The notes under the pieces were generated by a model. The model was given only the letters and a program-made list of their open reading frames with translations. It had not been told where the DNA came from and did not search any database. A DNA stretch of 49,193 nt from a virus. Lineage: Duplodnaviria > Heunggongvirae > Uroviricota > Caudoviricetes. The stretch lies in the IMG/VR virus record IMGVR_UViG_3300045988_148039; one strand, 5' to 3'. Numbering within the stretch: position 1 is the stretch's first letter; every line of letters begins with the position of its first letter. The translations under genes were made by a program, and so were the position numbers. Shown in pieces: positions 12,271-46,479 of the stretch.

Positions 12271-12310
12271 ATGTTGTAACTATATATTTATATAATTATA
12301 GAAATATATA
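12271..12310. promoter_or_regulatory. AT-rich palindromic motif copy (TTATATAATTATAGAAAT) just downstream of the lysis genes
   Basis: Same motif family as in cassettes A-C, read directly. Confidence 0.4.
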
Positions 12311-26866: not shown

Positions 26867-26916
26867 TTGTCTTTCTGGCGCTTACATTACACCACCATAA
26901 AACGATCCGTAAAGGA

Positions 26917-27189
26917 TCATTTGATCCCTTGTTCCAATTCTGACGACACTTTAACCTTTTCCCATACAAGGGTTTGCAGCCTTAACAGAATCGCATCTTT
27001 ATCAAGGTGTGAAAGATCCTTAACCATATCGTCAAACGACAGAACGCGAATGGCCATCTCAATGACCCTCGGCGGCTCCCCCTTCTCATATCGCTTATAT
27101 GTAGCCAACGATATCCCAAATTCTTCGGCGGCTCGCTCCTGCGTCCAGTTCATCCCACGACGCCATAATTTCAATTCATAACCCGTCAT
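26917..27189 (-). CDS. XRE-family HTH regulator
   Basis: Start at ATG 27189 with GGAGG RBS; HTH segment WTQERAAEEFGISLATYKRYEKGE. Confidence 0.55.
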   Translation of the reverse strand: MTGYELKLWRRGMNWTQERAAEEFGISLATYKRYEKGEPPRVIEMAIRVLSFDDMVKDLSHLDKDAILLRLQTLVWEKVKVSSELEQGIK

Positions 27190-27218
27190 AGCATCCTCCG
27201 CGCACAATATTAACACTC

Positions 27219-27243
27219 GCAAAGTGTCAAAATGACACTTTGC
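27219..27243. promoter_or_regulatory. Perfect 11-bp inverted repeat GCAAAGTGTCA-aaa-TGACACTTTGC (candidate operator)
   Basis: Read directly about 30 bp upstream of the HTH gene start. Confidence 0.55.
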
Positions 27244-27252
27244 GCATTGTGT

Positions 27253-27633
27253 TTACTTAACGAGGAATAAAAATGGTTTATTGTTAGGCGGTGTAATCGG
27301 GGCTGGCTCGCTTTTGCTCATGCGATCAGTGTACCAGGCCAGCTCCTTGTCAAAGTAAGCCTGATTAAAATAGGCCATGAATGTAGTTTCAAATCCATAA
27401 CGACCGCTAATACGCAGCATCTGATTGCCGTTCTCTGTTTCCAGATATACCTGGGCACGTTCCTGATTCTCCTTCAGCCAGGTTAAAGCCTCGTCGCACG
27501 AGGACACACGATACTCATCATCGTAGCCGTCATCGATGCGGCTTGAAGAAGAACGGCAAATCACGCCAACAGAACCAGCCAGGATAGTTTGAATTTTAAG
27601 GAAAGCGTTTTTGCGGATTTTGATCATGCTCAT
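27253..27633 (-). CDS. Hypothetical protein (first gene behind repeat cassette C)
   Basis: 126-aa ORF; ATG preceded by GGAGA of the conserved leader. Confidence 0.45.
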   Translation of the reverse strand: MSMIKIRKNAFLKIQTILAGSVGVICRSSSSRIDDGYDDEYRVSSCDEALTWLKENQERAQVYLETENGNQMLRISGRYGFETTFMAYFNQAYFDKELAWYTDRMSKSEPAPITPPNNKPFLFLVK

Positions 27634-27640
27634 CGGGTTT

Positions 27641-27750
27641 TCTCCGGTTTAACCAGGGCGACTATCGCTCGGTTTCGGGTATAACCTTAGGAAATTTTTT
27701 CCCACCTGTAAAGCAGTTTTTATATAAATCTATAATTATATAATTCTATG
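27641..27750 (-). promoter_or_regulatory. Conserved promoter/leader cassette, copy C
   Basis: Differs from copy A at a handful of positions over about 105 bp; read directly. Confidence 0.7.
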
Positions 27751-27796
27751 AGCACAAAAAAGCCCCTTTGCAACAGGGGCTTATCATTCGTTCTGA

Positions 27797-28096
27797 TCAG
27801 ATGTTAAACGCTATTCGTTTTCCTGTGGGAAGCTCAACATCCAGGCTTAATTTGCCTCCCATAGATTCAACGTAACGCTTTAATGTCGCCAGCTTTAAAT
27901 CATTTCCGCGCTGCTCCAGCTTTGTTACTGCTGGCTGGCTTATACCCATCGCCTCAGCAACCTGTTTTTGTGATAACTGGAGTTCTTCACGCATCATCTG
28001 CAAGCCGACCTCAAGAATCATCTCATCTGCCATTTCTTTAATTCGCGCCTGGCTTTCAGGTGAACGGCTGGCAATCGCCTCATCTAATGTTCTCAT
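27797..28096 (-). CDS. HigA-like HTH antitoxin
   Basis: 99-aa HTH protein immediately downstream of the toxin-like gene. Confidence 0.6.
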   Translation of the reverse strand: MRTLDEAIASRSPESQARIKEMADEMILEVGLQMMREELQLSQKQVAEAMGISQPAVTKLEQRGNDLKLATLKRYVESMGGKLSLDVELPTGKRIAFNI

Positions 28097-28449
28097 TACT
28101 TGCTCTCCAGTGTGTTCAGATGTGCTGCAAACTCATCCTCAGCTATACGCACCAGTTTTTCATAAAACCGTTTATCGTTACTTTTGTCTCCTGCACAAAG
28201 AACGATGGCCCGGCGAATCGGATCGAACGCATAAAAGGCTCTTATCGGACGGCCAGAAAACTGAACGCGAAGCTCTTTCATATTTTTGTACCGAGAACCT
28301 TTTACGGTATCGGCATATGGCCTGGGTAACTCAGGTCCGTAAACCTGTAGCTTTTTCAAATCAGCCAAAACCTTTTCCTGAAGAGCGTCTTCTTGCTCAT
28401 TTAGCCAGTCGTCAAATCGCTGGCTAAAAAGTACCGTCCACATGCTCAA
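28096..28449 (-). CDS. HigB/RelE-family toxin-like protein
   Basis: 117 aa; toxin-upstream order as in HigBA; stop overlaps the antitoxin start. Confidence 0.6.
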   Translation of the reverse strand: MSMWTVLFSQRFDDWLNEQEDALQEKVLADLKKLQVYGPELPRPYADTVKGSRYKNMKELRVQFSGRPIRAFYAFDPIRRAIVLCAGDKSNDKRFYEKLVRIAEDEFAAHLNTLESK

Positions 28450-28687
28450 TCCTATAACCTGTAGTTTATATCACTAACTATATAACCTGTGAGTTATAAT
28501 TTCAAGAAAAACGGGGCTATTTAACATAATGGACGTTATCGGCACCACCGGATCACCGTTCGTTGTCGGATCTAAAAAATCCGCTCAAAAGATCATGTTT
28601 TCCTGGGCGTTTTCCACCGTTTTTTATGTTGCTTATTTGTTAATGAAATCTCGTTTCCAGTTTCGCCTCATTTTCGACGCGAAAGCC

Positions 28688-28978
28688 CTATTTTTGTGAC
28701 TTTACTCCTGGCATATGGACTTCCCAGCGCCGAATCCCCATAGCTGCGCAAAAATCAGCCACATAATTCAATCCCGCCCATTCGCGGATACCACCACGGG
28801 CTTTTTCAATGAAAACGGCAATCCCTTTTTTATTGAGAGCAAAAAGCCGCCAGCTTTTTGTCACTTCGTCCTGGGTAGCCACAACACAAGTGAAAGCGCC
28901 CATGCGATACAGGTCCAAGAACTCTTTGCGTGTTTTGCGTACAAGTTCCATAACAAACCTCATATTTGCATGTTTCAA
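28688..28978 (-). CDS. Hypothetical protein
   Basis: 96-aa ORF translationally coupled to 28975..29274. Confidence 0.4.
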   Translation of the reverse strand: MKHANMRFVMELVRKTRKEFLDLYRMGAFTCVVATQDEVTKSWRLFALNKKGIAVFIEKARGGIREWAGLNYVADFCAAMGIRRWEVHMPGVKSQK

Positions 28979-29274
28979 ACATCTGTTTTGTCATCAATGA
29001 AGATTAACCCTAACCCAGCGAAGTAACACAGCAGCGCCCAGGCTGCATACGGAATGCTGGATCTGGATGTGGACTCCTTTAACATCTGCCAGTTGCGAAC
29101 ATTGCGACTATCTTTTAAGCCAAGTTTTTTGGCCAACTGCGAGCCGCTCATTCCGGTCAGGCCAATGACTGCCCGAACTTCTCCACATGTAGGAGATTCC
29201 CATTCATCCGCTTTTTTTAAACAAGCCGGATTCAACATTTTTAAAACAGTATCTTTATCCATAACCATCTCCAT
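28975..29274 (-). CDS. HTH protein with C-terminal hydrophobic segment
   Basis: 99 aa; HTH-like MSGSQLAKKLGLKDSRNVRNWQ and C-terminal IPYAAWALLCYFAGLGLIFI. Confidence 0.4.
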   Translation of the reverse strand: MEMVMDKDTVLKMLNPACLKKADEWESPTCGEVRAVIGLTGMSGSQLAKKLGLKDSRNVRNWQMLKESTSRSSIPYAAWALLCYFAGLGLIFIDDKTDV

Positions 29275-29504
29275 TTATTACATCTACGATGGTAGGAAAT
29301 CTTTTCCTATGTGGCAATAGAAATTTACCACATTTCGTATAAGACAAGTTTTCTATACCTAATAGGAAATCATGATTCTTACGTTTTATCGCGTTCTGAT
29401 GGCTACTGTGTGCGTATTTATCGACGTTTATTGATAAGGCTCGCCCTTTCCTCCTGCAAAGCCTGGCCGTAGGCCTTATTTCGGCCTTATATAAATTGAT
29501 TTTG

Positions 29505-29625
29505 TATAGTTCGAAACGCGCCGTTTCGAAAAGGATGATCAGGCTGCTCCATGCCTCCGGCAAGTGCCGGAGGAGGTATATTTGAGCGTAGCGACTCGAA
29601 CCGGCGCGAGCTTTAGCTCGCTGCA
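29505..29625. other. Cluster of perfect hairpins/palindromes
   Basis: TTCGAAACG-cgc-CGTTTCGAA, CCTCCGGCA-ag-TGCCGGAGG and GCGAGC-ttta-GCTCGC read directly. Confidence 0.6.
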
Positions 29626-29639
29626 AGGGCGAACATATT

Positions 29640-29905
29640 CACAGGCAAAGCCTGCGTAAGTTAAATAAAGAAAGTCTTAATAAAAGAAAGTGATTTTGCA
29701 TTTATTTGTTTAGTGCATCTATTATAAAAAACCATTTGCATATACATATCAAAACTGTGGACAACTTAATTAGCCGATGCCTGTAAAGGCGATATTTACG
29801 CTGTGTTCAGGTTTAGAGAAAATTAATTTAGCTTGTTTTTTGAACAGATATTTTATTGCGACGTAGATAATCCTCCGGTAAAACCGGATTCATCATTCAG
29901 GTGGG
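29640..29905. other. AT-rich region downstream of repA with DnaA-box-like TGTGGACAA (candidate origin)
   Basis: AT-rich 260 bp directly 3' of the RepA stop; TGTGGACAA at 29756..29764. Confidence 0.4.
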
Positions 29906-30886
29906 TTAATGTTGGAGTGATTTCCAGGTCTTTCTTAGCCTGTTATAACGCTGCTCAACGAGGGAGCGTAAATATGCAAGGTCAGCTCCAGGATACATGC
30001 CATCAGCAAATTCCTGGCTAACCTCTCTAGTGATTTGATGACGAAGTTCGGCCTCTCCCTTTTCCCGAACAAGACGCGCAGCTCTCTCCGCTGCTTTCTG
30101 TTTTGCCTTTATCTCTCTGGCCGTCTTCCTCTGACGCCATACATTCTCCATCTGCTCCTGAATAACAATACGCTTATAATCAGCCTCCGTTATCGCTTTT
30201 TTAAGCCGTTCGCTATTCTTCGCATTGAAGTAATTAAGTTTCTGGCTAACCGCACGTCTCCATGCTTGTTCAGTAATACCAACGGTTTCCAGCAGTTGAT
30301 CACGAATCTCTATTTTCGCTGGCCAATACTGTTTATTCACCCGATCCCAGCGACGTTCATAATCAATAAAACCTAACGCTTTCAGTTGCGACAACGCCCT
30401 TGTACAGCGCGTTATAGACTTGTTCCCAGCTTCGGATACGGTAGACAGGCCGCAAAAATCAGCCAACGCCTCAGCACTAGCCAGAACCCGCTTAGAAATG
30501 ATGTTTACATGGTGCAAAATCGCAGCGATCACAGCATTAATCGCCCGACGACGATGCTCGTTTATCCGGCGCTTCCGCTCTGACGGTTGATTAACGTAGA
30601 ACGCAACCTCACACGTAAGATCACGCCCATTAATGCGCTGTAAAGCATCAGATAACACCAGCGGCAGCTTGTGCGTATGGTGCTTTGGAGGCTGGAACTC
30701 CGGCGACAAATTACAAACGTAAGCTGAACGTAGAGACGGCATTGGTCTATCCATATGTTCGCTCTTGCGTCCACGGAAAACCAACGTATAATGGGAGTTG
30801 TCGAGGCGCCCATGGATTGTTGTTGTTGGTTTTCCGTGGATGTCGCAAGAAGCCCGCAGATTTATCTGCGGGCTTTTTGTTTCCAT
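29906..30886 (-). CDS. repA: Plasmid replication initiator RepA (IncFII/RepFIIA-type); true start possibly internal (MDRPMPS, about 30754)
   Basis: Central segment NKSITRCTRALSQLKALGFIDYERRWD resembles R100/R1 RepA1 KLSITRATRALTFLSELGLITYQTEYD as I recall it; basic C-terminal half; length about 280 aa from the internal start. Confidence 0.7.
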   Translation of the reverse strand: METKSPQINLRASCDIHGKPTTTIHGRLDNSHYTLVFRGRKSEHMDRPMPSLRSAYVCNLSPEFQPPKHHTHKLPLVLSDALQRINGRDLTCEVAFYVNQPSERKRRINEHRRRAINAVIAAILHHVNIISKRVLASAEALADFCGLSTVSEAGNKSITRCTRALSQLKALGFIDYERRWDRVNKQYWPAKIEIRDQLLETVGITEQAWRRAVSQKLNYFNAKNSERLKKAITEADYKRIVIQEQMENVWRQRKTAREIKAKQKAAERAARLVREKGEAELRHQITREVSQEFADGMYPGADLAYLRSLVEQRYNRLRKTWKSLQH

Positions 30887-31067
30887 ATCTGGTCACTTTC
30901 CAACCAGACACCCACAATCATAACCACGTTACGTGGTTTTAAGAGAACTCTACCACAACACTTTCGGTCATGCACGAAGTCTCTCACTGATCGAACGATA
31001 ATCCACCAGTAAAAGGATCTAAATTGGATCTCGTTTTGCGAGCATCATACTACTGGCCTAACTCCAG

Positions 31068-31622
31068 TCAATGATTCCCAGCCGGAAACCTGCGGTAAAG
31101 CGTGGATAAGGTAACATCGAAGATAATCGCTATCTGCTTACGTGAAACACCATTCGCAATAAGCCTTCCGATCTGTTCCCATTGCTCTGGTGCCAATTTT
31201 GAGCGGCGTCCTCCTATCCTGCCGTTAGCCCTTGCCACCGCCAATCCTGCACGCGTTCTTTCAATCATATTTTCCCGCTCCATCTCTGCGACTGCACTCA
31301 GCATCGTGTAGGCAAAGCGGCCAATTGAAGTGCTAATTTTTATCCCTTCCGTAATCGAAATAAACTCAATGTTGTTTGATAAAAAATAATTAAGTAAATC
31401 AACAAGATGAATCAGAGAGCGCCCCATTCGGTCCAGCTTCCAGACAATAACCGTATCGCCCGGCCGTAACACCTTCAGTAGCTTATCAAGTCCTGGTCGT
31501 TTTGATTTAGCACCGGATATTTTATCTTCAAAAATCCGGTCACATCCTGAACTCCTGAGCGCCTCCAGTTGTAATTCCAAATTCTGGTCAAAAGTTGACA
31601 CCCTCGCATAACCATATTGCAT
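31068..31622 (-). CDS. Serine recombinase, Gin/Hin/Pin/Cin-family DNA invertase
   Basis: 184 aa; MQYGYARVSTFDQNLELQ, VWKLDRMGRS and C-terminal HTH closely parallel Gin as I recall it. Confidence 0.9.
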   Translation of the reverse strand: MQYGYARVSTFDQNLELQLEALRSSGCDRIFEDKISGAKSKRPGLDKLLKVLRPGDTVIVWKLDRMGRSLIHLVDLLNYFLSNNIEFISITEGIKISTSIGRFAYTMLSAVAEMERENMIERTRAGLAVARANGRIGGRRSKLAPEQWEQIGRLIANGVSRKQIAIIFDVTLSTLYRRFPAGNH

Positions 31623-31693
31623 ACTTTCTAAACCGCGATTGTTGCTAAAAGCGGGAAAAAATATCGTTCAGACGACACAGAGGCAATTCGCAA

Positions 31694-31720
31694 AAACCTC
31701 GGTTTACAGGAAACGGTAAA
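31694..31720. repeat. Invertase crossover site, left copy (AAACCTCGGTTTACAGGAAACGGTAAA)
   Basis: Inverted copy of 34751..34775 with one mismatch in the shared core; encodes ...LGLQETVN... in both fiber reading frames. Confidence 0.8.
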
Positions 31721-32720
31721 CAGGGCTGGTAACGCCGTGCAAAAAAATGGCGATACTTTGTCCGGTGGGCTTACTTTTGAAAATGACTCAATCCTTGCCT
31801 GGATTCGAAATACTGACTGGGCGAAGATTGGATTTAAAAATGATGCCGATGGTGACACTGATTCATACATGTGGTTTGAAACAGGCGACAACGGCAATGA
31901 ATATTTCAAATGGAGAAGCAAACAAAGCACCACAACAAAAGACCTGATGAATCTTAAATGGGATGCTTTGTCTGTTCTTGTTAAAGCCCTTTTCAGCAGT
32001 GAAGTAAAAATATCGACAGTCAATGCACTGAGGATATTTAATTCATCTTTTGGTGCCATTTTTCGCCGTTCTGAAGAATGCCTGCATATCATCCCTACAC
32101 GAGAGAACGAGGGAGAAAATGGTGATATAGGGCCACTACGCCCCTTTACGCTTAATCTTAGAACTGGTCGGATAAGCATGGGGCATGGTCTTGATGTTAC
32201 AGGGGATATATTTGCAAACCGTTTTGCAATTAACAGTAGTACCGGCATGTGGATTCATATGCGTGACCAGAATGTTATTTTGGGACGCAATGCGGTATCC
32301 ACCGATGGTGCGCAGGCATTACTTCGTCAGGACCATGCTGATCGCAAATTTATGATTGGTGGGCTGGGAAATAAGCAATTTGGCATCTACATGATTAATA
32401 ACTCAAGGACAGCCAATGGCACCGATGGTCAGGCGTACATGGATAATAACGGGAACTGGCTTTGCGGTGCGCAAGTTATTCCCGGCAACTATGGCAATTT
32501 TGATTCCAGATATGTGAAAGATGTTCGACTTGGTTCACAGCAATATTATGGAGTGAACAACTGGCAAACATGGAATTTCCAGTGCCCGTCAGGTCATGTA
32601 TTGTCTGGTATTAATGTTCAGGATACAGGGTCCAACTCTGCCGATAATATAGCGGGCGTTTATTACAGACCCGTTCAAAAGTATATAAATGGCACCTGGT
32701 ATAATGTAGCGAGCGTTTAA
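31694..32720 (+). CDS. Alternative tail-fiber C-terminal segment (no own start; fused to the constant part after inversion)
   Basis: Frame open upstream to the crossover site with no start codon; C-terminus ...[11 protein letters not shown] matches the current fiber's ...INGTWYNAGSI. Confidence 0.7.
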
Positions 32721-32721
32721 T

Positions 32722-33249
32722 ATGATGCACTTAAAGAACATAAAAGCGGGTAACGCTAAAACACTGGAGCAGTATGAGTTAACAAAGAAGCACGGAGTCA
32801 TCTGGCTTTACTCTGAGGACGAAAAAAACTGGTATGAGGAAGTGAAAAACTTTCAGCCAGACACAATAAAGATTGTTTACGATGAAAATAATATTATTGT
32901 CGCCATCACCAAAGATGCATCCACGCTTAACCCTGAAGGTTTTAGCGTCGTTGAGGTTCCCGATATAACGGCCAATCGTCGGGCCGATGATTCCGGTAAG
33001 TGGATGTTTAAGGACGGAGCTGTGGTTAAACGGATTTATACGGCAGACGAACAGGAACAACAGGCCGAATCACAAAAGGCCGCGTTACTTTCCGAAGCAG
33101 AAAGCATTATTCAGCCACTGGAACGCGCTGTCAGGCTGAATATGGCGACGGATGAGGAACGCGCACGACTGGAGTCATGGGAACGCTACAGCGTTCTGGT
33201 CAGCCGTGTGGATACAGCAAAGCCCGAATGGCCACAAAAGCCTGAGTAA
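32722..33249 (+). CDS. Tail fiber assembly chaperone (for the alternative fiber tip)
   Basis: 175 aa starting MMHLKNI; paralog of 33278..33811. Confidence 0.75.
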
Positions 33250-33277
33250 AAATTAAGGCCCAATATCGGGCCTTCTC

Positions 33278-33811
33278 TCATTCTGGTTGTTCGGGAAACG
33301 TTACTGGCAGGCTGGAGGTGTCTGTGGATTCGACTTTCTGCGCGTAAAGCATCCACTCGGTTAATTTTTGTTTATTCTCGTCGGAAATGATGCCCAGCCG
33401 TAGCTGTGAGTCCCATAGCTGGGTTTTATCCCTGACAAGTTGCAACAGGCTTTGCTTTTCATTCTCTGCCTGCTGCCTCTGTTCCTCCTCGGTATAAGTT
33501 CGCTTTATCACTACGCCATCTTTGAACATCCATTTACCCGAAATATCAGCCCGGCGATTTGCTGTAATATCAGGAACCTCAACGACGCTTGCGCCTTCTG
33601 GATTAATTGCTGAAACATCCTTTTCAATACAAATAATAACGTCGTTGTGGTCATAGACCATTTTCAACGTATCAGGCTGAAAGTTCTTTTGTTCCTCATA
33701 CCAGTTTTTCCCATCCTCTGTATAAAGCCATTTGATGTTAAATTGTTTCGTTAGCTGGTATTGCTCTTTTGTTTTAGGGTTGCCAGCAGTAATATTTTTT
33801 AAGTGCATCAT
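33278..33811 (-). CDS. Tail fiber assembly chaperone (for the currently expressed fiber tip)
   Basis: 177 aa starting MMHLKNI; immediately downstream of the fiber gene. Confidence 0.75.
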   Translation of the reverse strand: MMHLKNITAGNPKTKEQYQLTKQFNIKWLYTEDGKNWYEEQKNFQPDTLKMVYDHNDVIICIEKDVSAINPEGASVVEVPDITANRRADISGKWMFKDGVVIKRTYTEEEQRQQAENEKQSLLQLVRDKTQLWDSQLRLGIISDENKQKLTEWMLYAQKVESTDTSSLPVTFPEQPE

Positions 33812-44239: not shown

Positions 44240-45703
44240 TTATTCAGAAAACAAGTTCAGCAGATAATCAGGATTATATTCCATGACGAACTCTATATCT
44301 CTGGCAGGTGAGAACGGTGTCATTTTTACATGGAATTTAACAATCCCGTCCATTAATGACGTAATCGTGTTTTCTGACTGATCAAAGGTAACAACACCAC
44401 CTGCAATATCCTGATTACCTGTGAGGCCGTTAAGCCAAATATTCGCACTTGTAACAATCGATTCAATTAATCGACGGTTTGCAGGATTGTCTATTTTTGA
44501 CCAATGCGAAAGAATTAACGTATTACCCACCCAGTTAAACATACGTCGGCAAACACGAAATGCGTCTTTGGGGTCTGTAGATGTTGGATAAATAGCATTA
44601 CGGTTTCCCCATGATTTCCAACCATCAAAATTAAGGCTTGTTACAATCCCCTGTCCATTTAAGTAGTTTGCCTGGCTAATGTTAAGCCATACTTCACTGC
44701 CATCTTTACGTACAGCACCGTCCATCTGTAGTTTTATATTTGACGGAGAACGTGATGGAATATCACCATACTGACTATCCAGCAAGCATGTTGCGGCCGC
44801 TAAATGGGTTGAGTGATGGTAAATATTGTCACCAAGTTTCACCATCGGCCAGCACACTGTCTGGTTAGCGGCCATGTGATTATTGTTCTGTTTCCATTCA
44901 GGAACAGCCGAGTAATCACTGATAGTAGATTTATCGGTCGGCGCATCCGTTATAGCTTCTGCTTTGAACAATTCACTAATCAGCGCGGCTTTAGCCGCCA
45001 TTAGCTGACCAACTTCACTATCAGAACTAAATCCAGGTGCAATCACTTGTCCAGGAACTAACTTGAAGCGGGGATACACATCTGACAGTAACTCAAGCCC
45101 TGTATTGGCTTTAGTGTTGGAATCCACACCACCGATAATGTCATTTTTAGTTACGGCACCGGGATCAAGATGCGTATAACTAACCTTAAGAGTAGCGTCT
45201 TTTTCGGTAATTTTTCCTCCGCTAATAGCTGTAATGACCGTATAGCCATTATCATCCAGCGCCAGCACATAATCGGTATCAACCGTTAACCCAGGTGAAT
45301 CACCATCTGCTTTTTTCACAACAACAGATTTATATAAGACACCATCGTTAGAGAGCGTACCTTTCCCGCCAGAAAGTTTTACTAACTCATCAGTAACGTC
45401 TTTCTTATGCTTTGCTGGATCAAGCACATTGATAAATACAACTGGCGCAACACCATATATTCCAAATGCGACTTTAATTACTTCGCTTAAAGTATATTTC
45501 TCGAAGTTTGTGCTATATCCTATTTTAGATACGGCCTCTGCGTATGTATAAGCAATGATAGGTTTATTTACCGCTGAGGCTGGATCTTCTAACTGATTAA
45601 CAGGAGCCGTACCAAATGCGACAATCAACCCAGCACTAACTTGCACTGGAGGAGTTATAGATGTAGCCAGCTCAGATATATAAATACCGTGGCGATATCC
45701 CAT
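44240..45703 (-). CDS. Tail sheath protein
   Basis: 487 aa; N-terminus MGYRHGIYISE resembles the conserved start of P2 FI-type sheaths. Confidence 0.8.
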   Translation of the reverse strand: MGYRHGIYISELATSITPPVQVSAGLIVAFGTAPVNQLEDPASAVNKPIIAYTYAEAVSKIGYSTNFEKYTLSEVIKVAFGIYGVAPVVFINVLDPAKHKKDVTDELVKLSGGKGTLSNDGVLYKSVVVKKADGDSPGLTVDTDYVLALDDNGYTVITAISGGKITEKDATLKVSYTHLDPGAVTKNDIIGGVDSNTKANTGLELLSDVYPRFKLVPGQVIAPGFSSDSEVGQLMAAKAALISELFKAEAITDAPTDKSTISDYSAVPEWKQNNNHMAANQTVCWPMVKLGDNIYHHSTHLAAATCLLDSQYGDIPSRSPSNIKLQMDGAVRKDGSEVWLNISQANYLNGQGIVTSLNFDGWKSWGNRNAIYPTSTDPKDAFRVCRRMFNWVGNTLILSHWSKIDNPANRRLIESIVTSANIWLNGLTGNQDIAGGVVTFDQSENTITSLMDGIVKFHVKMTPFSPARDIEFVMEYNPDYLLNLFSE

Positions 45704-45993
45704 TATTTAATCTCCATGATAGAAGAAGAAACTCTAGAGTACATTACATACTCGACACTGGTTTTATCAGAAAGTCTTTTTTCTGCATCTGCAAAATCAC
45801 TGGTTGCCACAAACAAACACTTTGCACCAGGAATATGTGATATTAATTTTTCACACTCTGGAGATAAGCCATTCTTAAATAGTTTATGCTTCAAAATTGA
45901 GAGTTGAGGGATTGTTGGTCCTATATATACAAATGTTTGAGCAACATCTTCCTTCTTTTCTATATCTTCTTTACTACTTTTCTTATTAGCCAT
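45703..45993 (-). CDS. Hypothetical protein (head-tail region)
   Basis: 96-aa ORF. Confidence 0.35.
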   Translation of the reverse strand: MANKKSSKEDIEKKEDVAQTFVYIGPTIPQLSILKHKLFKNGLSPECEKLISHIPGAKCLFVATSDFADAEKRLSDKTSVEYVMYSRVSSSIMEIK

Positions 45994-46479
45994 TTAGATA
46001 AACTCCTGAGACTGAATATTCTGAGGCTTTAATACTAGCCACGTTCCAGTTGCTTCCGTTATCCAATATGGATATGGTTGATCATCAAACATTCGCCATC
46101 TGATATCACCCTGAAAGAGAAATTTCTCTTCAAGTAAAGGCTTCTCCTGAAAATGAAACATCATCCTTTCAAGAAGAGCCATTACCCATTCATATCCAGT
46201 ATGGTCCTCACAAAAACCACCTAAAAGAAACTTAACCTTAACTTCATCCGTTTCAGGCTGCATTCCTCCTTCCGTGGGCCTGATAATCACATGAGGAAAT
46301 TCTGGCGGTTTATCTGGAGATGGTTGTGATTTAGGAGGCAAGTACCCTTTAAATATTGTTGGAACAAACAATTTAATATCGCTGTCTGTTTCATCATAAG
46401 GAGGCCCCTGCACTAATAAATCATGGAAAACCTCATGTTCCAACCGATTTTTTATTGCATCTATCAAAAGATTAATCAA
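45994..46479 (-). CDS. Hypothetical protein (possible tail completion/neck)
   Basis: 161-aa ORF between capsid and sheath genes. Confidence 0.4.
   Translation of the reverse strand: MINLLIDAIKNRLEHEVFHDLLVQGPPYDETDSDIKLFVPTIFKGYLPPKSQPSPDKPPEFPHVIIRPTEGGMQPETDEVKVKFLLGGFCEDHTGYEWVMALLERMMFHFQEKPLLEEKFLFQGDIRWRMFDDQPYPYWITEATGTWLVLKPQNIQSQEFI

What the first reader, a model, noticed from the sequence alone, without database searches (positions are those of the whole stretch)
29400..31067. IncFII-type replicon with GATC cluster upstream and hairpin cluster downstream
The RepA ORF is followed by an AT-rich stretch with a DnaA-box-like TGTGGACAA and then three perfect palindromes (29505..29625). 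Upstream, between repA and the invertase, are three GATC sites within 42 bp (30989..31030) and an AACCACG-tta-CGTGGTT palindrome. This fits an IncFII-like arrangement of origin downstream and antisense/methylation control upstream, but none of it is verified.
Basis: partly seen in the sequence, partly recalled or inferred. Interest (0 to 1): 0.55.

Follow-up and report, generated by a model that had tools for sequence, protein, structure and literature searches.

The report
Phage-plasmid replicon with antisense-RNA control
This stretch is the plasmid-type replication module of a ~49-kb E. coli phage-plasmid: a distant IncFII/IncL-M-family initiator gene with its own small antisense control RNA and a phased GATC array upstream, and downstream an origin with DnaA boxes plus a conserved hairpin and primase-start module. 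It is an uncatalogued variant of a well-known kind, not a new kind of system.

Summary
RepA belongs to the broad IncFII/IncL-M initiator family (Pfam 1.3e-43; NCBIfam NF040977 232 bits). It fails the strict IncFII model (79 bits against a 447 cutoff) and is 24% identical to R1-type RepA. There is no CopA (Rfam negative, positive controls found), no copB, no conserved Tap-like leader and no I-complex pseudoknot. Instead a ~90-nt countertranscript is predicted on the + strand (~30795-30884). It has a conserved promoter, an invariant 5' tail complementary to the apical loop of a long repA-leader hairpin, and covariation support. Its model finds untrained relatives. The GATC triplet alone is not statistically remarkable. 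However, 2-3 GATCs at exact 11-bp spacing next to the upstream promoter recur in nine diverged replicons, which suggests Dam/SeqA control (inferred). Downstream lie two inverted DnaA boxes around a 25%-GC stretch, then hairpins with compensatory changes. One hairpin element recurs in ~2,550 plasmids, including pCD1 and IncFII(K). A 19-mer matches the alpha3/St-1/G4 primer-start core at 17/19. The annotated 326-aa RepA is probably over-extended. Verdict: a real replicon, a new variant of a known kind, of moderate interest.

The parts
31044..31071 (-). Promoter P1 for the repA leader: TTGACT-16 nt-TATGAT. The -35 hexamer overlaps the stop codon of the invertase gene.
   Evidence: Promoter scan, 10/12 matches. 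TTGAC / GAGTA(G/T)AAT-type hexamers are conserved across diverged replicons.
31016..31030 (.). Phased GATC pair (GATCCAATTTAGATC, 11 bp start to start), about +8 to +22 of the P1 transcript. Candidate Dam/SeqA target.
   Evidence: There are 2-3 GATCs at exactly 11-bp spacing in all nine distinct family replicons; in L047 the pair lies upstream of the -35.
30989..30992 (.). It is not conserved at this exact position; relatives have a GATC about 16 nt further on, next to the TGCA motif upstream of P2.
30947..30957 (-). Candidate second promoter P2: extended -10, TGTGgTAGAGT.
   Evidence: TGTGnTAGAGT is conserved in 8 of 9 family replicons. It has no -35 and was not flagged by the scan. Inference only.
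30922..30938 (.). Perfect 17-bp palindrome AACCACGTAACGTGGTT, at about +2 to +18 of a P2 transcript. It could be a 5' RNA hairpin or an operator.
   Evidence: I20. The half-sites AACCAC/GTGGTT are kept in Salmonella and L052; they change on both sides to CTAC/GTAG in L018/L025/L038/L040.
30765..30792 (+). Promoter of the antisense RNA: TTGCGT-16 nt-TATAAT, lying inside the 3' half of the leader hairpin.
   Evidence: Read from the sequence. TTGC(G/A/T)T and TA(T/G)(A/T)AT are conserved at 16-18 nt spacing in all family members.
30795..30884 (+). Predicted countertranscript of about 85-90 nt: a single-stranded 5' tail GAGUUGUCGAGG, stem-loop 1 with a hypervariable loop, then a Rho-independent terminator (30846-30879 plus a U tract).
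   Evidence: Fold -41.1 kcal/mol, z -5.6. Terminator-like Rfam partial hits. 11 of 26 pairs carry compensatory changes, 0/500 shuffles. Model R1 finds the untrained relatives L018, L038 and L040 at 56-66 bits, and nothing in IncFII or IncL/M-type controls.
30763..30848 (-). Long repA-leader hairpin: a 16-bp perfect stem (30840-30825 with 30785-70) extended by CUUGCG/CGCAAG. The apical loop CGCCUCGACAACUCC is invariant in relatives and complementary to the antisense 5' tail.
   Evidence: (I2). Loop invariance. Compensatory changes in the stem in Salmonella, L003 and L047.
29906..30754 (-). repA coding sequence. The probable start is ATG 30742 (278 aa) or ATG 30754 (282 aa). The 326-aa ORF reaching 30886 is probably over-extended.
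   Evidence: Pfam match starts at residue 53. NCBIfam NF040977 scores 232 bits. The Salmonella homologue is annotated at 277 aa. A natural leader variant 2 nt longer is annotated from the ATG equivalent to 30754. ATG 30886 is absent from Salmonella and L052.
29874..29888 (-). Hairpin just after the repA stop codon (TCCGGT-nnn-ACCGGA, then GG), at the position of the IncFII 'CIS' region.
   Evidence: The AATCCGG..CCGGAGG block is conserved in the window, Salmonella and the canonical IncFII loci L005, L113, L114 and L116.
29756..29764 (-). DnaA box 1 (TTGTCCACA on the repA strand, 8/9 to TTATNCACA).
   Evidence: Aligned position holds TTATCCACA in L045, L052, L038, L018 and L003, and TTATTCACA in Salmonella.
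29657..29755 (.). AT-rich origin core (GC 0.25) with direct repeats 29661-29675 / 29677-29691 and conserved ATGCAAA-type motifs. Presumed RepA-binding and unwinding region.
   Evidence: (D2). The role is inferred by collinearity with R1-type oriR.
29635..29643 (+). DnaA box 2 (ATATTCACA, 8/9), inverted relative to box 1 and overlapping the 3' arm of hairpin H0 (29640-29656).
   Evidence: perfect TGTGGATAA in L025, 8/9 in L038, L006, L003 and L047, at a fixed distance from site A.
29597..29631 (+). 'Site A': invariant flanks CGAACCGGCGCG and CTGCAAGGGCG around hairpin H1 (29606-29621).
   Evidence: All three variable stem pairs change on both sides, 98.7% of cells pair, and slid controls give zero double changes. 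The element occurs in about 2,550 PLSDB records including pCD1 and IncFII(K), always just beyond the origin.
29510..29573 (+). Hairpins H3 (29510-29530) and H2 (29554-29573).
   Evidence: I9, I11. Compensatory variants by inspection: CCTCCAGC/GCTGGAGG and ACAAAAC/GTTTTGT in L047, CCCGGC/GCCGGG in L018/L025/L038. The + strand folds more stably in 14 of 16 loci.
29445..29463 (+). 'Site B': G4-type primase start core CCTTTCCTCCTGCAAAGCC. Candidate leading-strand start, with CTG at 29454-29456.
   Evidence: 17/19 to the alpha3/St-1 oric core and 10/10 (CTGCAAAGCC) to the G4 primer start. Chance is about 0.01 per window at 3 or fewer mismatches. CCTGCWAAGC recurs on the non-rep strand downstream of rep in R1-like, pCD1 and IncL/M-like loci.

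Best explanation
The segment 29445-31071 is the plasmid-maintenance (theta-type) replicon of a ~49-kb myovirus-like phage-plasmid. It is a diverged member of the IncFII/IncL-M RepA superfamily with its own control module.

Shown at sequence or comparative level:
- repA (29906 to 30742 or 30754, - strand) encodes the initiator.
- A conserved gene for a ~90-nt countertranscript (+ strand, ~30795-30884) lies in the repA leader.
- The origin lies 140-270 bp downstream of repA, between two inverted DnaA boxes flanking a 25%-GC stretch.
- Beyond it lies a conserved structured module (H0-H3, sites A and B).

Inferred steps:
1. The invariant single-stranded 5' tail of the antisense RNA docks on the invariant apical loop of the long leader hairpin. 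It then zips along the 5' arm and lowers RepA synthesis, giving negative copy-number control. In this subgroup, thermodynamic modelling suggests that the freed 3' arm re-pairs with the start region of ATG 30742. Blocking of the start at 30886, which lies 2 nt from the target, or RNase III decay are alternatives.
2. The 11-bp-phased GATC array at +8 to +22 of promoter P1 is bound by SeqA when hemimethylated. This would briefly shut off repA transcription after each replication.
3. RepA with DnaA opens the AT-rich core. DnaB moves away from repA and exposes the + strand. The hairpins fold there, and primase starts the leading strand at a G4-type CTG site (site B, possibly also site A), as described for the R1 G site.
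For: Family: Pfam PF02387 at 1.3e-43; NCBIfam NF040977 at 232 bits against a cutoff of 70.

Context: more than 98% identical replicons occur in about 60 circular 46-52-kb E. coli, Salmonella and Klebsiella plasmids and in three Yersinia phages. RepA is the only annotated initiator on the complete element.

Antisense RNA: conserved promoter and terminator. Fold z -5.6. Covariation: 11 of 26 pairs, 0/500 shuffles, slid controls low. The model finds untrained relatives at 56-66 bits and nothing in controls. The hypervariable segment among near-identical plasmids is the loop of stem-loop 1.

Refolding: the unpaired probability of AUG 30742 drops from 0.95 to 0.02 when the target is masked. The initiation region drops from 0.58 to 0.20 in the window, 0.58 to 0.23 in L052 and 0.61 to 0.41 in Salmonella (structures).

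GATC phasing: nine replicons.

Origin: conserved DnaA boxes and a post-stop hairpin shared with canonical IncFII; AT-rich core.

Hairpins: covariation and a + strand stability bias in 14 of 16 loci.

G4-type core.
Against: There is no experimental or transcriptome evidence for the RNA, the promoters, the origin or priming.

The refolding model is not general. Masking the target does not lower start-site accessibility in the distant members L003, L025 and L047. For the alternative start ATG 30754 the effect goes the opposite way. Fold z-scores for the alternative hairpin are not significant (-1.8 and -1.2).

The GATC pair is self-complementary and transcribed, so a 5' RNA hairpin or a protein operator would fit equally well. 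In L047 the pair lies upstream of the promoter.

Site B lacks a stem-loop on its 5' side, unlike G4. Site A has the stem-loops but a weaker core match. R1-type plasmids lack site A altogether, so it cannot be universally essential. The position of the R1 G site (380-400 bp beyond oriR) is taken from memory, not from a paper read here.
Confidence: 0.7

Rival explanations
1. It is a classical IncFII (R1/R100-type) replicon, controlled by CopA antisense RNA, the CopB repressor and the Tap leader peptide.
For: RepA is in Pfam IncFII_repA. The repA-to-origin layout is collinear with R1-type loci.
Against: Rfam CopA scores 82-106 bits in control IncFII loci but gives no hit in the window or its family at E<=1 and E<=0.1 respectively. 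TIGR03474 scores 79 bits against a 447 cutoff. Identity to R1-type RepA is 24%. There is no ORF for CopB in the 181-bp spacer. No conserved short ORF ends at the RepA start.
Confidence: 0.03
2. Control is of the I-complex / IncL-M type: a leader peptide whose translation opens the RepA ribosome-binding site, plus an activating pseudoknot between the target loop and a site next to the RepA start. The antisense RNA would block both.
For: The nearest named relatives of RepA (37-38%; L006, pKPC_UVA01-like) hit Rfam PK-repBA and have a 17-codon leader ORF overlapping the RepA start. The invariant loop suggests a constraint beyond antisense pairing. L052 has an ORF ending in an ATGA overlap with the RepA ATG. 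In the free leader, the CGCAAGAG region is buried in the hairpin base.
Against: No PK-repBA or PK-repZ hit in the window family. Candidate leader ORFs differ in frame and end point among close relatives and are absent in Salmonella. No consistent complement to the loop was found near the RepA start by inspection of alignment A4.
Confidence: 0.12
3. The GATC array is not a methylation or SeqA switch. It is either a 5'-terminal stem-loop stabilising the P1 transcript, or an operator (GATCC-N6-GATCC) for RepA or a host protein.
For: GATC is self-complementary and the pair folds as a small hairpin in the leader model. The conserved motif extends beyond GATC, as GATCC(T/A)TT. The triplet is not statistically unusual in the window.
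Against: A hairpin under selection would be expected to covary, yet both arms stay GATC in nine replicons. Some members carry three copies in strict 11-bp register, which suits same-face protein binding to DNA. No GATCC motif occurs in the origin where RepA should bind. In L047 the pair is upstream of the -35 and so is not transcribed from P1.
Confidence: 0.3
4. The downstream hairpin cluster is not a primase (G4-type) start signal. It could be a PriA-type primosome assembly site, a DnaA-box-hairpin (ABC-primosome-like) loading site, or simply an insulator or terminator block between the origin and the next operon.
For: H0 overlaps a DnaA box. H2 is flagged as terminator-like on the + strand. 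Site A is absent from R1-type plasmids, which still replicate. Site B lacks an adjacent 5' stem-loop.
Against: No + strand gene reads into H2. The hairpins are conserved with invariant single-stranded flanks at a fixed distance from the origin in about 2,550 plasmids of different gene context. The 17/19 match to phage oric cores lies on the strand predicted to be the leading-strand template.
Confidence: 0.3

Closest known systems
IncFII basic replicon of R1/R100 (copB-copA-tap-repA-CIS-oriR-G site)
   Same: Same initiator superfamily and same order of parts. An antisense RNA gene sits in the repA leader, a hairpin follows the stop codon, and a DnaA box and AT-rich origin lie downstream of repA. 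Further downstream, a G4-type core (CCTGCWAAGC) lies on the non-rep strand.
   Different: RepA is 24% identical and fails TIGR03474. There is no CopA (Rfam), no copB and no conserved tap. The antisense RNA is predicted to use a single-stranded 5' tail against a target loop. A phased GATC array sits at the upstream promoter. A second, inverted DnaA box and site A/H1 are present here but missing in R1-type. No Tus ter core lies near the origin.
I-complex / IncL-M replicons (ColIb-P9 repZ, pMU720, pMU604 repBA; Rfam PK-repZ, PK-repBA)
   Same: RepA falls under the same NCBIfam equivalog (NF040977 RepA_IncFII_LM). The nearest named relatives (37-38%) have this control type. The antisense target is a stem-loop upstream of a poorly exposed RepA start.
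   Different: No Rfam pseudoknot hit, no conserved leader peptide and no identifiable distal pseudoknot partner.
G4-type single-strand initiation signals (oric of phages G4, alpha3 and St-1; the R1 'G site')
   Same: A CTG start embedded in a CCTTTCCTCCTGCAAAGCC core (17/19 to alpha3/St-1, 10/10 to G4). It lies on the predicted leading-strand template downstream of the origin, with three stem-loops on that strand.
   Different: In the phages, stem-loop I lies immediately 5' of the CTG and contributes the pyrimidine tract. Here the best core (site B) has no adjacent 5' stem-loop, and the three hairpins lie 3' of it, in front of a second, weaker CTGCAAGGGCG (site A). Primase dependence is untested.
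SeqA/Dam sequestration of oriC and the dnaA promoter; Dam-sensitive promoters such as IS10 pIN
   Same: Two or three GATCs one helical turn apart, overlapping the start of an initiator-gene transcript.
   Different: It sits at a plasmid repA promoter of the IncFII superfamily. No such control was found in the literature searched. Binding and effect are untested.
Loop-to-tail antisense systems (for example hok/sok, IS10 RNA-IN/RNA-OUT); comparison from general knowledge
   Same: Predicted first contact between a single-stranded end of one RNA and a hairpin loop of the other. The loop contains a YUNR-like CUCG.
   Different: Here the tail belongs to the antisense RNA and the loop to a replication-initiator mRNA. 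There is no homology; the analogy is functional only.

Membership tests
IncFII/IncL-M RepA superfamily (Pfam PF02387; NCBIfam NF040977) | Profile match above the curated cutoff over the full domain | tested here: met
   PF02387 at 149.8 bits (cutoff 22.9), profile positions 2-272 of 275. NF040977 at 232.2 bits (cutoff 70).
IncFII sensu stricto (R1/R100-type) | RepA reaches the equivalog cutoff of TIGR03474 incFII_RepA | tested here: not met
   79.2 bits against a cutoff of 446.9. The control R1-like RepA scores 581.5. Identity is 24%.
IncFII sensu stricto (R1/R100-type) | CopA-like antisense RNA (Rfam RF00042) in the leader | tested here: not met
   No hit at E<=1 in window 27000-33000 or at E<=0.1 in family loci. 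Controls L005, L113 and L114 score 82-106 bits.
IncFII sensu stricto (R1/R100-type) | copB (repA2) repressor gene upstream of repA | tested here: not met
   The 181-bp spacer between the invertase stop (31068) and the annotated repA start contains no plausible ORF. Annotation of relatives shows none, whereas the control loci show a 'replication regulatory protein RepA'.
IncFII sensu stricto (R1/R100-type) | Short Tap leader peptide ending at the RepA start (translational coupling) | tested here: inconclusive
   No ORF is conserved in frame and end point across the family. In the window, a TTG/GTG-initiated frame ends at TAG 30747-49, and ATG 30886 is in frame with RepA. L052 has an ATGA overlap. 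Salmonella has none.
I-complex / IncL-M control (PK-repZ RF01087, PK-repBA RF01089) | Leader pseudoknot model match plus leader peptide | tested here: not met
   No hit in the window or its family. L006 (37% RepA identity) scores 56.7 bits against a gathering score of 45.
Countertranscript-controlled replicon (general class) | Constitutive-looking promoter and intrinsic terminator antisense to the rep leader, with a conserved structure | tested here: met
   Promoter TTGCGT-16-TATAAT and the terminator are conserved. Covariation. Model search. Expression not testable here.
R1-type origin (oriR) | DnaA box and AT-rich region downstream of repA, after a CIS spacer | tested here: met
   (sequence level only).
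R1-type origin (oriR) | RepA- and DnaA-dependent initiation, acting in cis | not testable with these tools
   Needs in vivo or in vitro replication assays.
G4-type ssi (primase-only priming signal) | CTG start in the conserved oric core sequence, on the template strand | tested here: met
   29445-29463 (+) matches the alpha3/St-1 core at 17/19 and G4 at 10/10. Chance is about 0.01 per window.
G4-type ssi (primase-only priming signal) | Stem-loops I-III immediately 5' of the CTG on the same strand | tested here: inconclusive
   Met for site A (H3-H2-H1 then CTG 29621-23). Not met for site B.
G4-type ssi (primase-only priming signal) | Priming by DnaG plus SSB alone | not testable with these tools
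   Biochemical assay needed.
SeqA-sequestered locus | At least two GATC sites about one helical turn apart | tested here: met
   31016 and 31027 are 11 bp apart. The same spacing holds in nine replicons.
SeqA-sequestered locus | SeqA binding to the hemimethylated sites and delayed remethylation | not testable with these tools
   Needs footprinting, ChIP or methylation kinetics.

The most novel reading that the evidence does not exclude
This replicon clade (found in phage-plasmids and several enterobacterial plasmids) may combine three uncharacterised control layers:
1. A new countertranscript family whose invariant 5' tail attacks an invariant mRNA loop and flips an anti-start-codon switch, instead of using Tap or pseudoknot logic.
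2. SeqA/Dam sequestration of the initiator promoter through an 11-bp-phased GATC array, giving a post-replication eclipse.
3. An origin-adjacent ssDNA element (site A/H1, about 2,550 plasmids including pCD1 and IncFII(K)) that acts as a previously unrecognised priming or helicase-entry signal distinct from the R1 G site.
Probability: 0.25. Interest if true: 0.6.

Novelty: new variant of a known kind. Interest (0 to 1): 0.4.

Why it matters
The ~48-kb phage-plasmids carrying this replicon are common in E. coli, including the reference strain ATCC 25922. They also occur in Salmonella and Klebsiella and as infectious Yersinia phages. Their replicon nevertheless receives no type in the MOB-suite typing shown by PLSDB.

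Defining the initiator start, the control RNA (whose loop looks like an incompatibility determinant), the origin and the priming site would allow replicon typing, compatibility prediction and minimal-vector construction.

The phased GATC array offers a directly testable case of methylation-coupled plasmid copy control. The site A hairpin is a strongly conserved but unannotated element next to the origins of thousands of clinically important IncFII-like plasmids.

Tried and rejected
- CopA, PK-repZ, PK-repBA and every other Rfam family were searched over the leader. Only terminator-like partial hits (Thr_leader, CsrC) appeared.
- A conserved leader peptide was sought in all frames. None is shared. 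My first guess, that the +2-nt natural variant would shift the ATG-30886 ORF into the TAG-terminated frame, was wrong.
- A pseudoknot partner for the invariant loop near the RepA start was looked for by inspection. Only a split, non-conserved match inside the coding region was found (alignment A4).
- A general 'anti-anti-SD' switch was tested. The first accessibility test gave the opposite sign for ATG 30754. Re-analysis supports the model only for the ATG-30742 start and only in the window subgroup.
- The GATC triplet was tested as a statistical outlier and is not significant on its own.
- Tus ter sites were sought near the origin and are absent.
- Long-range pairing of CGCCCTT (site B flank) with AAGGGCG (site A flank) is seen in the DNA fold. 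It is conserved rather than covarying, so it is left open.
- Literature: no open paper was found on this phage-plasmid's replicon, on Dam control of IncFII-type repA, or giving the R1 G-site sequence. The 1998 MMBR review is not held. The vB_YpM_HQ103 paper has no RepA or IncF information.
- The genome-contig scan with the RepA alignment returned only 9 loci.
- PDB sequence search gave no relevant structure.
Full report
**What the element is.** The window is essentially a complete ~49-kb phage-plasmid. The region 29300-31100 is 98-99.9% identical to about 60 circular, non-mobilizable 46-52-kb plasmids. These come from E. coli (including ATCC 25922), E. fergusonii, E. albertii and Klebsiella aerogenes, and three Salmonella plasmids are 74% identical. 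It is also 98-99% identical to Yersinia phages vB_YpM_39/41/44. The annotated relative pHN68-3 carries a full set of myovirus head, tail and lysis genes, ParA and ParB-like genes, a RelE/HTH pair, an MT-A70 methyltransferase, and a single replication initiator, this RepA. PLSDB/MOB-suite gives these plasmids no replicon type.

**Check of the observation.**
- The RepA ORF is 29906-30886 (-).
- TGTGGACAA is at 29756-29764, beside the GC minimum of 0.25 at 29650-29749.
- Perfect palindromes lie at 29510-29530, 29554-29573 and 29606-29621.
- GATC sites are at 30989, 31016 and 31027.
- The 17-bp palindrome is at 30922-30938.

The GATC triplet alone is not remarkable. The window has 134 sites, and random placement yields such a triplet in 46% of trials. 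For this 180-bp spacer P is about 0.014.

**RepA.** Pfam IncFII_repA matches at 1.3e-43 from residue 53. NCBIfam NF040977 (RepA_IncFII_LM) scores 232 bits against a cutoff of 70. The strict TIGR03474 incFII_RepA scores 79 against 447, whereas an R1-like control scores 581. Identity is 24% to R1-type RepA, 38% to a pKPC_UVA01-like Klebsiella RepA, 29% to a Serratia plasmid RepA and 86% to the Salmonella homologue.

The 326-aa ORF is probably over-extended, for five reasons:
- The Pfam and NCBIfam matches start after residue 45.
- The Salmonella homologue is annotated at 277 aa.
- A natural variant with a leader 2 nt longer is annotated from the ATG equivalent to 30754.
- ATG 30886 does not exist in Salmonella or L052.
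- The extra codons coincide with RNA structure that is conserved at the nucleotide level but not in frame.

**Comparators.** Scanning IMG/VR with two conserved DNA motifs, plus plasmid searches, gave a graded series of relatives. Their RepA identities to the window are 99, 86, 81, 59, 37, 34, 30 and 29%. Canonical IncFII loci were added as controls: R1-like L005, pCD1 L113, IncFII(K) L114 and Enterobacter L116.

**Upstream control region.**
- Promoter P1 (TTGACT-16-TATGAT, 31071-31044, - strand) is conserved.
- Immediately downstream, every one of nine distinct family replicons has two or three GATCs at exactly 11-bp start-to-start spacing. The window has GATCCAATTTAGATC; L018, L038 and L040 have three in register. 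In L047 the pair lies upstream of the -35.
- A conserved extended -10 (TGTGnTAGAGT, 30957-30947) may be a second promoter. The 17-bp palindrome would then form the 5' end of its transcript. Its half-sites are kept in close relatives and change on both sides (CTAC/GTAG) in others.
- There is no copB ORF.

**Antisense RNA.** On the + strand, TTGCGT (30765-70), 16 nt and TATAAT (30787-92) precede a transcript ending at a strong terminator (30846-30879 plus a T run). Rfam picks that terminator up only as partial look-alikes.

The ~90-nt RNA folds into a 10-12-nt single-stranded 5' tail (GAGUUGUCGAGG), stem-loop 1 and the terminator, at -41.1 kcal/mol and z -5.6. The same architecture and promoter occur in all family members.

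Covariation is good. Eleven of 26 pairs have changes on both sides (0/500 shuffles on the six-sequence alignment A5, 5/500 on the 13-sequence alignment A9), and the slid controls give 0-5. A covariance model built from six sequences finds the untrained relatives L018, L038 and L040 at 56-66 bits. It finds nothing in R1-like, pCD1, IncFII(K) or IncL/M-like loci.

Rfam CopA is found in three control loci (82-106 bits) and PK-repBA in L006, but neither is found in this family. Among near-identical E. coli plasmids, the only hypervariable segment is the loop of stem-loop 1. That is what an incompatibility determinant would look like.

**Target and mechanism.** The repA leader forms a long hairpin, with a 16-bp perfect stem (30840-25 with 30785-70) extended by CUUGCG/CGCAAG. 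Its apical loop CGCCUCGACAACUCC is invariant down to 29-30% RepA identity and is complementary to the antisense tail.

Masking the antisense target in a partition-function model drops the unpaired probability of AUG 30742 from 0.95 to 0.02. The initiation region drops from 0.58 to 0.20. The corresponding drops are 0.58 to 0.23 in L052 and 0.61 to 0.41 in Salmonella. The cause is that the freed 3' arm pairs with the start region.

This does not hold for the distant members. It also reverses for ATG 30754. The refolding model is therefore a subgroup-level inference. No conserved leader peptide or pseudoknot partner was found.

**Origin.** The layout is collinear with canonical IncFII. A hairpin follows the stop codon (AATCCGG..CCGGAGG, shared with the R1-like, pCD1 and IncFII(K) loci). 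Next come DnaA box 1 (the window has one mismatch; relatives have perfect TTATCCACA), conserved ATGCAAA-type motifs and direct repeats in the 25%-GC stretch, and then a second, inverted DnaA box. That box is 8/9 in the window (29635-43) and a perfect TGTGGATAA in L025. It overlaps hairpin H0.

**Hairpin cluster.** H1 lies between invariant flanks (CGAACCGGCGCG ... CTGCAAGGGCG on the + strand). Across 13 replicons its three variable pairs all change on both sides. 98.7% of cells pair, and slid controls give zero double changes. H2 and H3 show compensatory variants by inspection.

This 'site A' element is found in about 2,550 PLSDB records, mostly Klebsiella. Every example fetched (pCD1, IncFII(K), an Enterobacter IncFII and a Morganella plasmid) has it 360-400 bp past the repA stop. 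R1-type plasmids have a ~55-nt deletion there. The + strand of the H1-H3 region folds more stably than its complement in 14 of 16 loci. This fits function as single-stranded DNA on the strand that would be the leading-strand template for replication away from repA.

**Primase start core.** 29445-29463 (+), CCTTTCCTCCTGCAAAGCC, matches the complementary-strand origin core of phages alpha3 and St-1 at 17/19. It contains G4's CTGCAAAGCC, where the G4 record annotates the primer start. The chance expectation is 0.01 per window.

The core CCTGCWAAGC recurs on the non-rep strand 450-700 nt downstream of rep in R1-like, pCD1, IncL/M-like and family loci. In the R1-like locus it lies about 382 bp beyond oriR. 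That agrees with my recollection of the R1 'G site', which I could not check against a paper here.

Site A also has a CTG (29621-23) directly 3' of three stem-loops, the G4 arrangement, but a weaker core match. Which of the two sites is used, if either, cannot be decided computationally.

**Verdict.** This is a genuine and probably functional replicon. It belongs to the IncFII/IncL-M superfamily by initiator and origin layout, but it is not IncFII in the strict sense. Its control module (countertranscript family, phased GATC array, no CopB or Tap) is not represented in Rfam or in the PLSDB/MOB-suite typing. I rate it a new variant of a known kind, of moderate interest.

Noticed in passing
window 26904-26926 and 28551-28594: There are two further GATC clusters. 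One has three sites in 23 bp, the first pair 11 bp apart, at the 5' end of an HTH-regulator ORF (26917-27222, -). The other has three sites in 44 bp, upstream of the RelE/HTH pair. Together with the repA cluster, all three triplets within 50 bp lie in the 26.9-31.0 kb regulatory region.
   Followed up: partly
window 29906-30886 (-): The PGAP-style 326-aa RepA annotation carried by most relatives probably starts 44-48 codons too early. The extra codons overlap the antisense RNA gene and the leader hairpin. Indel variants break the frame.
   Followed up: yes
window ~30808-30826; L120, L121, L016: Among plasmids that are otherwise more than 98% identical, the only indel-rich segment is the loop of antisense stem-loop 1: AACAACAACAA versus GGAAAACCAACAACTAA versus CAACAACTAA. 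It looks like an incompatibility-determining loop.
   Followed up: partly
L038 3124-3760; L018 11299-11950: In relatives with 59% RepA identity, the antisense RNA gene lies about 520 nt upstream of RepA. An extra ORF of about 95-125 codons fills the gap, resembles the N-terminal winged-helix part of RepA, and ends 10 nt into repA.
   Followed up: no
L025 5590-5788: A viral contig with the same replicon type carries a P1-type C4 antisense RNA and isrK (Rfam 77 and 69 bits). This replicon clade therefore also serves other phage-like elements.
   Followed up: no
window 31068-33811: A Cin/Hin-type invertase (184 aa; Resolvase plus HTH_7) lies directly upstream of repA on the same strand, beside an invertible tail-fibre segment with opposed tail-fibre-assembly genes. 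Promoter P1's -35 overlaps the invertase stop codon, so read-through from the invertase gene into repA is possible.
   Followed up: no
whole element (L119 = pHN68-3, 45547-46134): The element encodes an MT-A70 family adenine methyltransferase of unknown specificity. This may be relevant to the GATC arrays.
   Followed up: no
L005 ~1815-1830 and ~1950-1965; L113, L114, L116: Canonical IncFII loci have two inverted Tus-ter-like cores (GTTGTAAC) between oriR and the G4-type core. The window has none near its origin; its only copy is at 12273.
   Followed up: partly
window 29440-29448 and 29626-29634 (+): CTCGCCCTT next to site B is complementary to AAGGGCGA(A) next to site A. The ssDNA fold closes the whole 190-nt H1-H3 domain with this stem. 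The tracts are conserved rather than covarying, so the pairing is unproven.
   Followed up: partly
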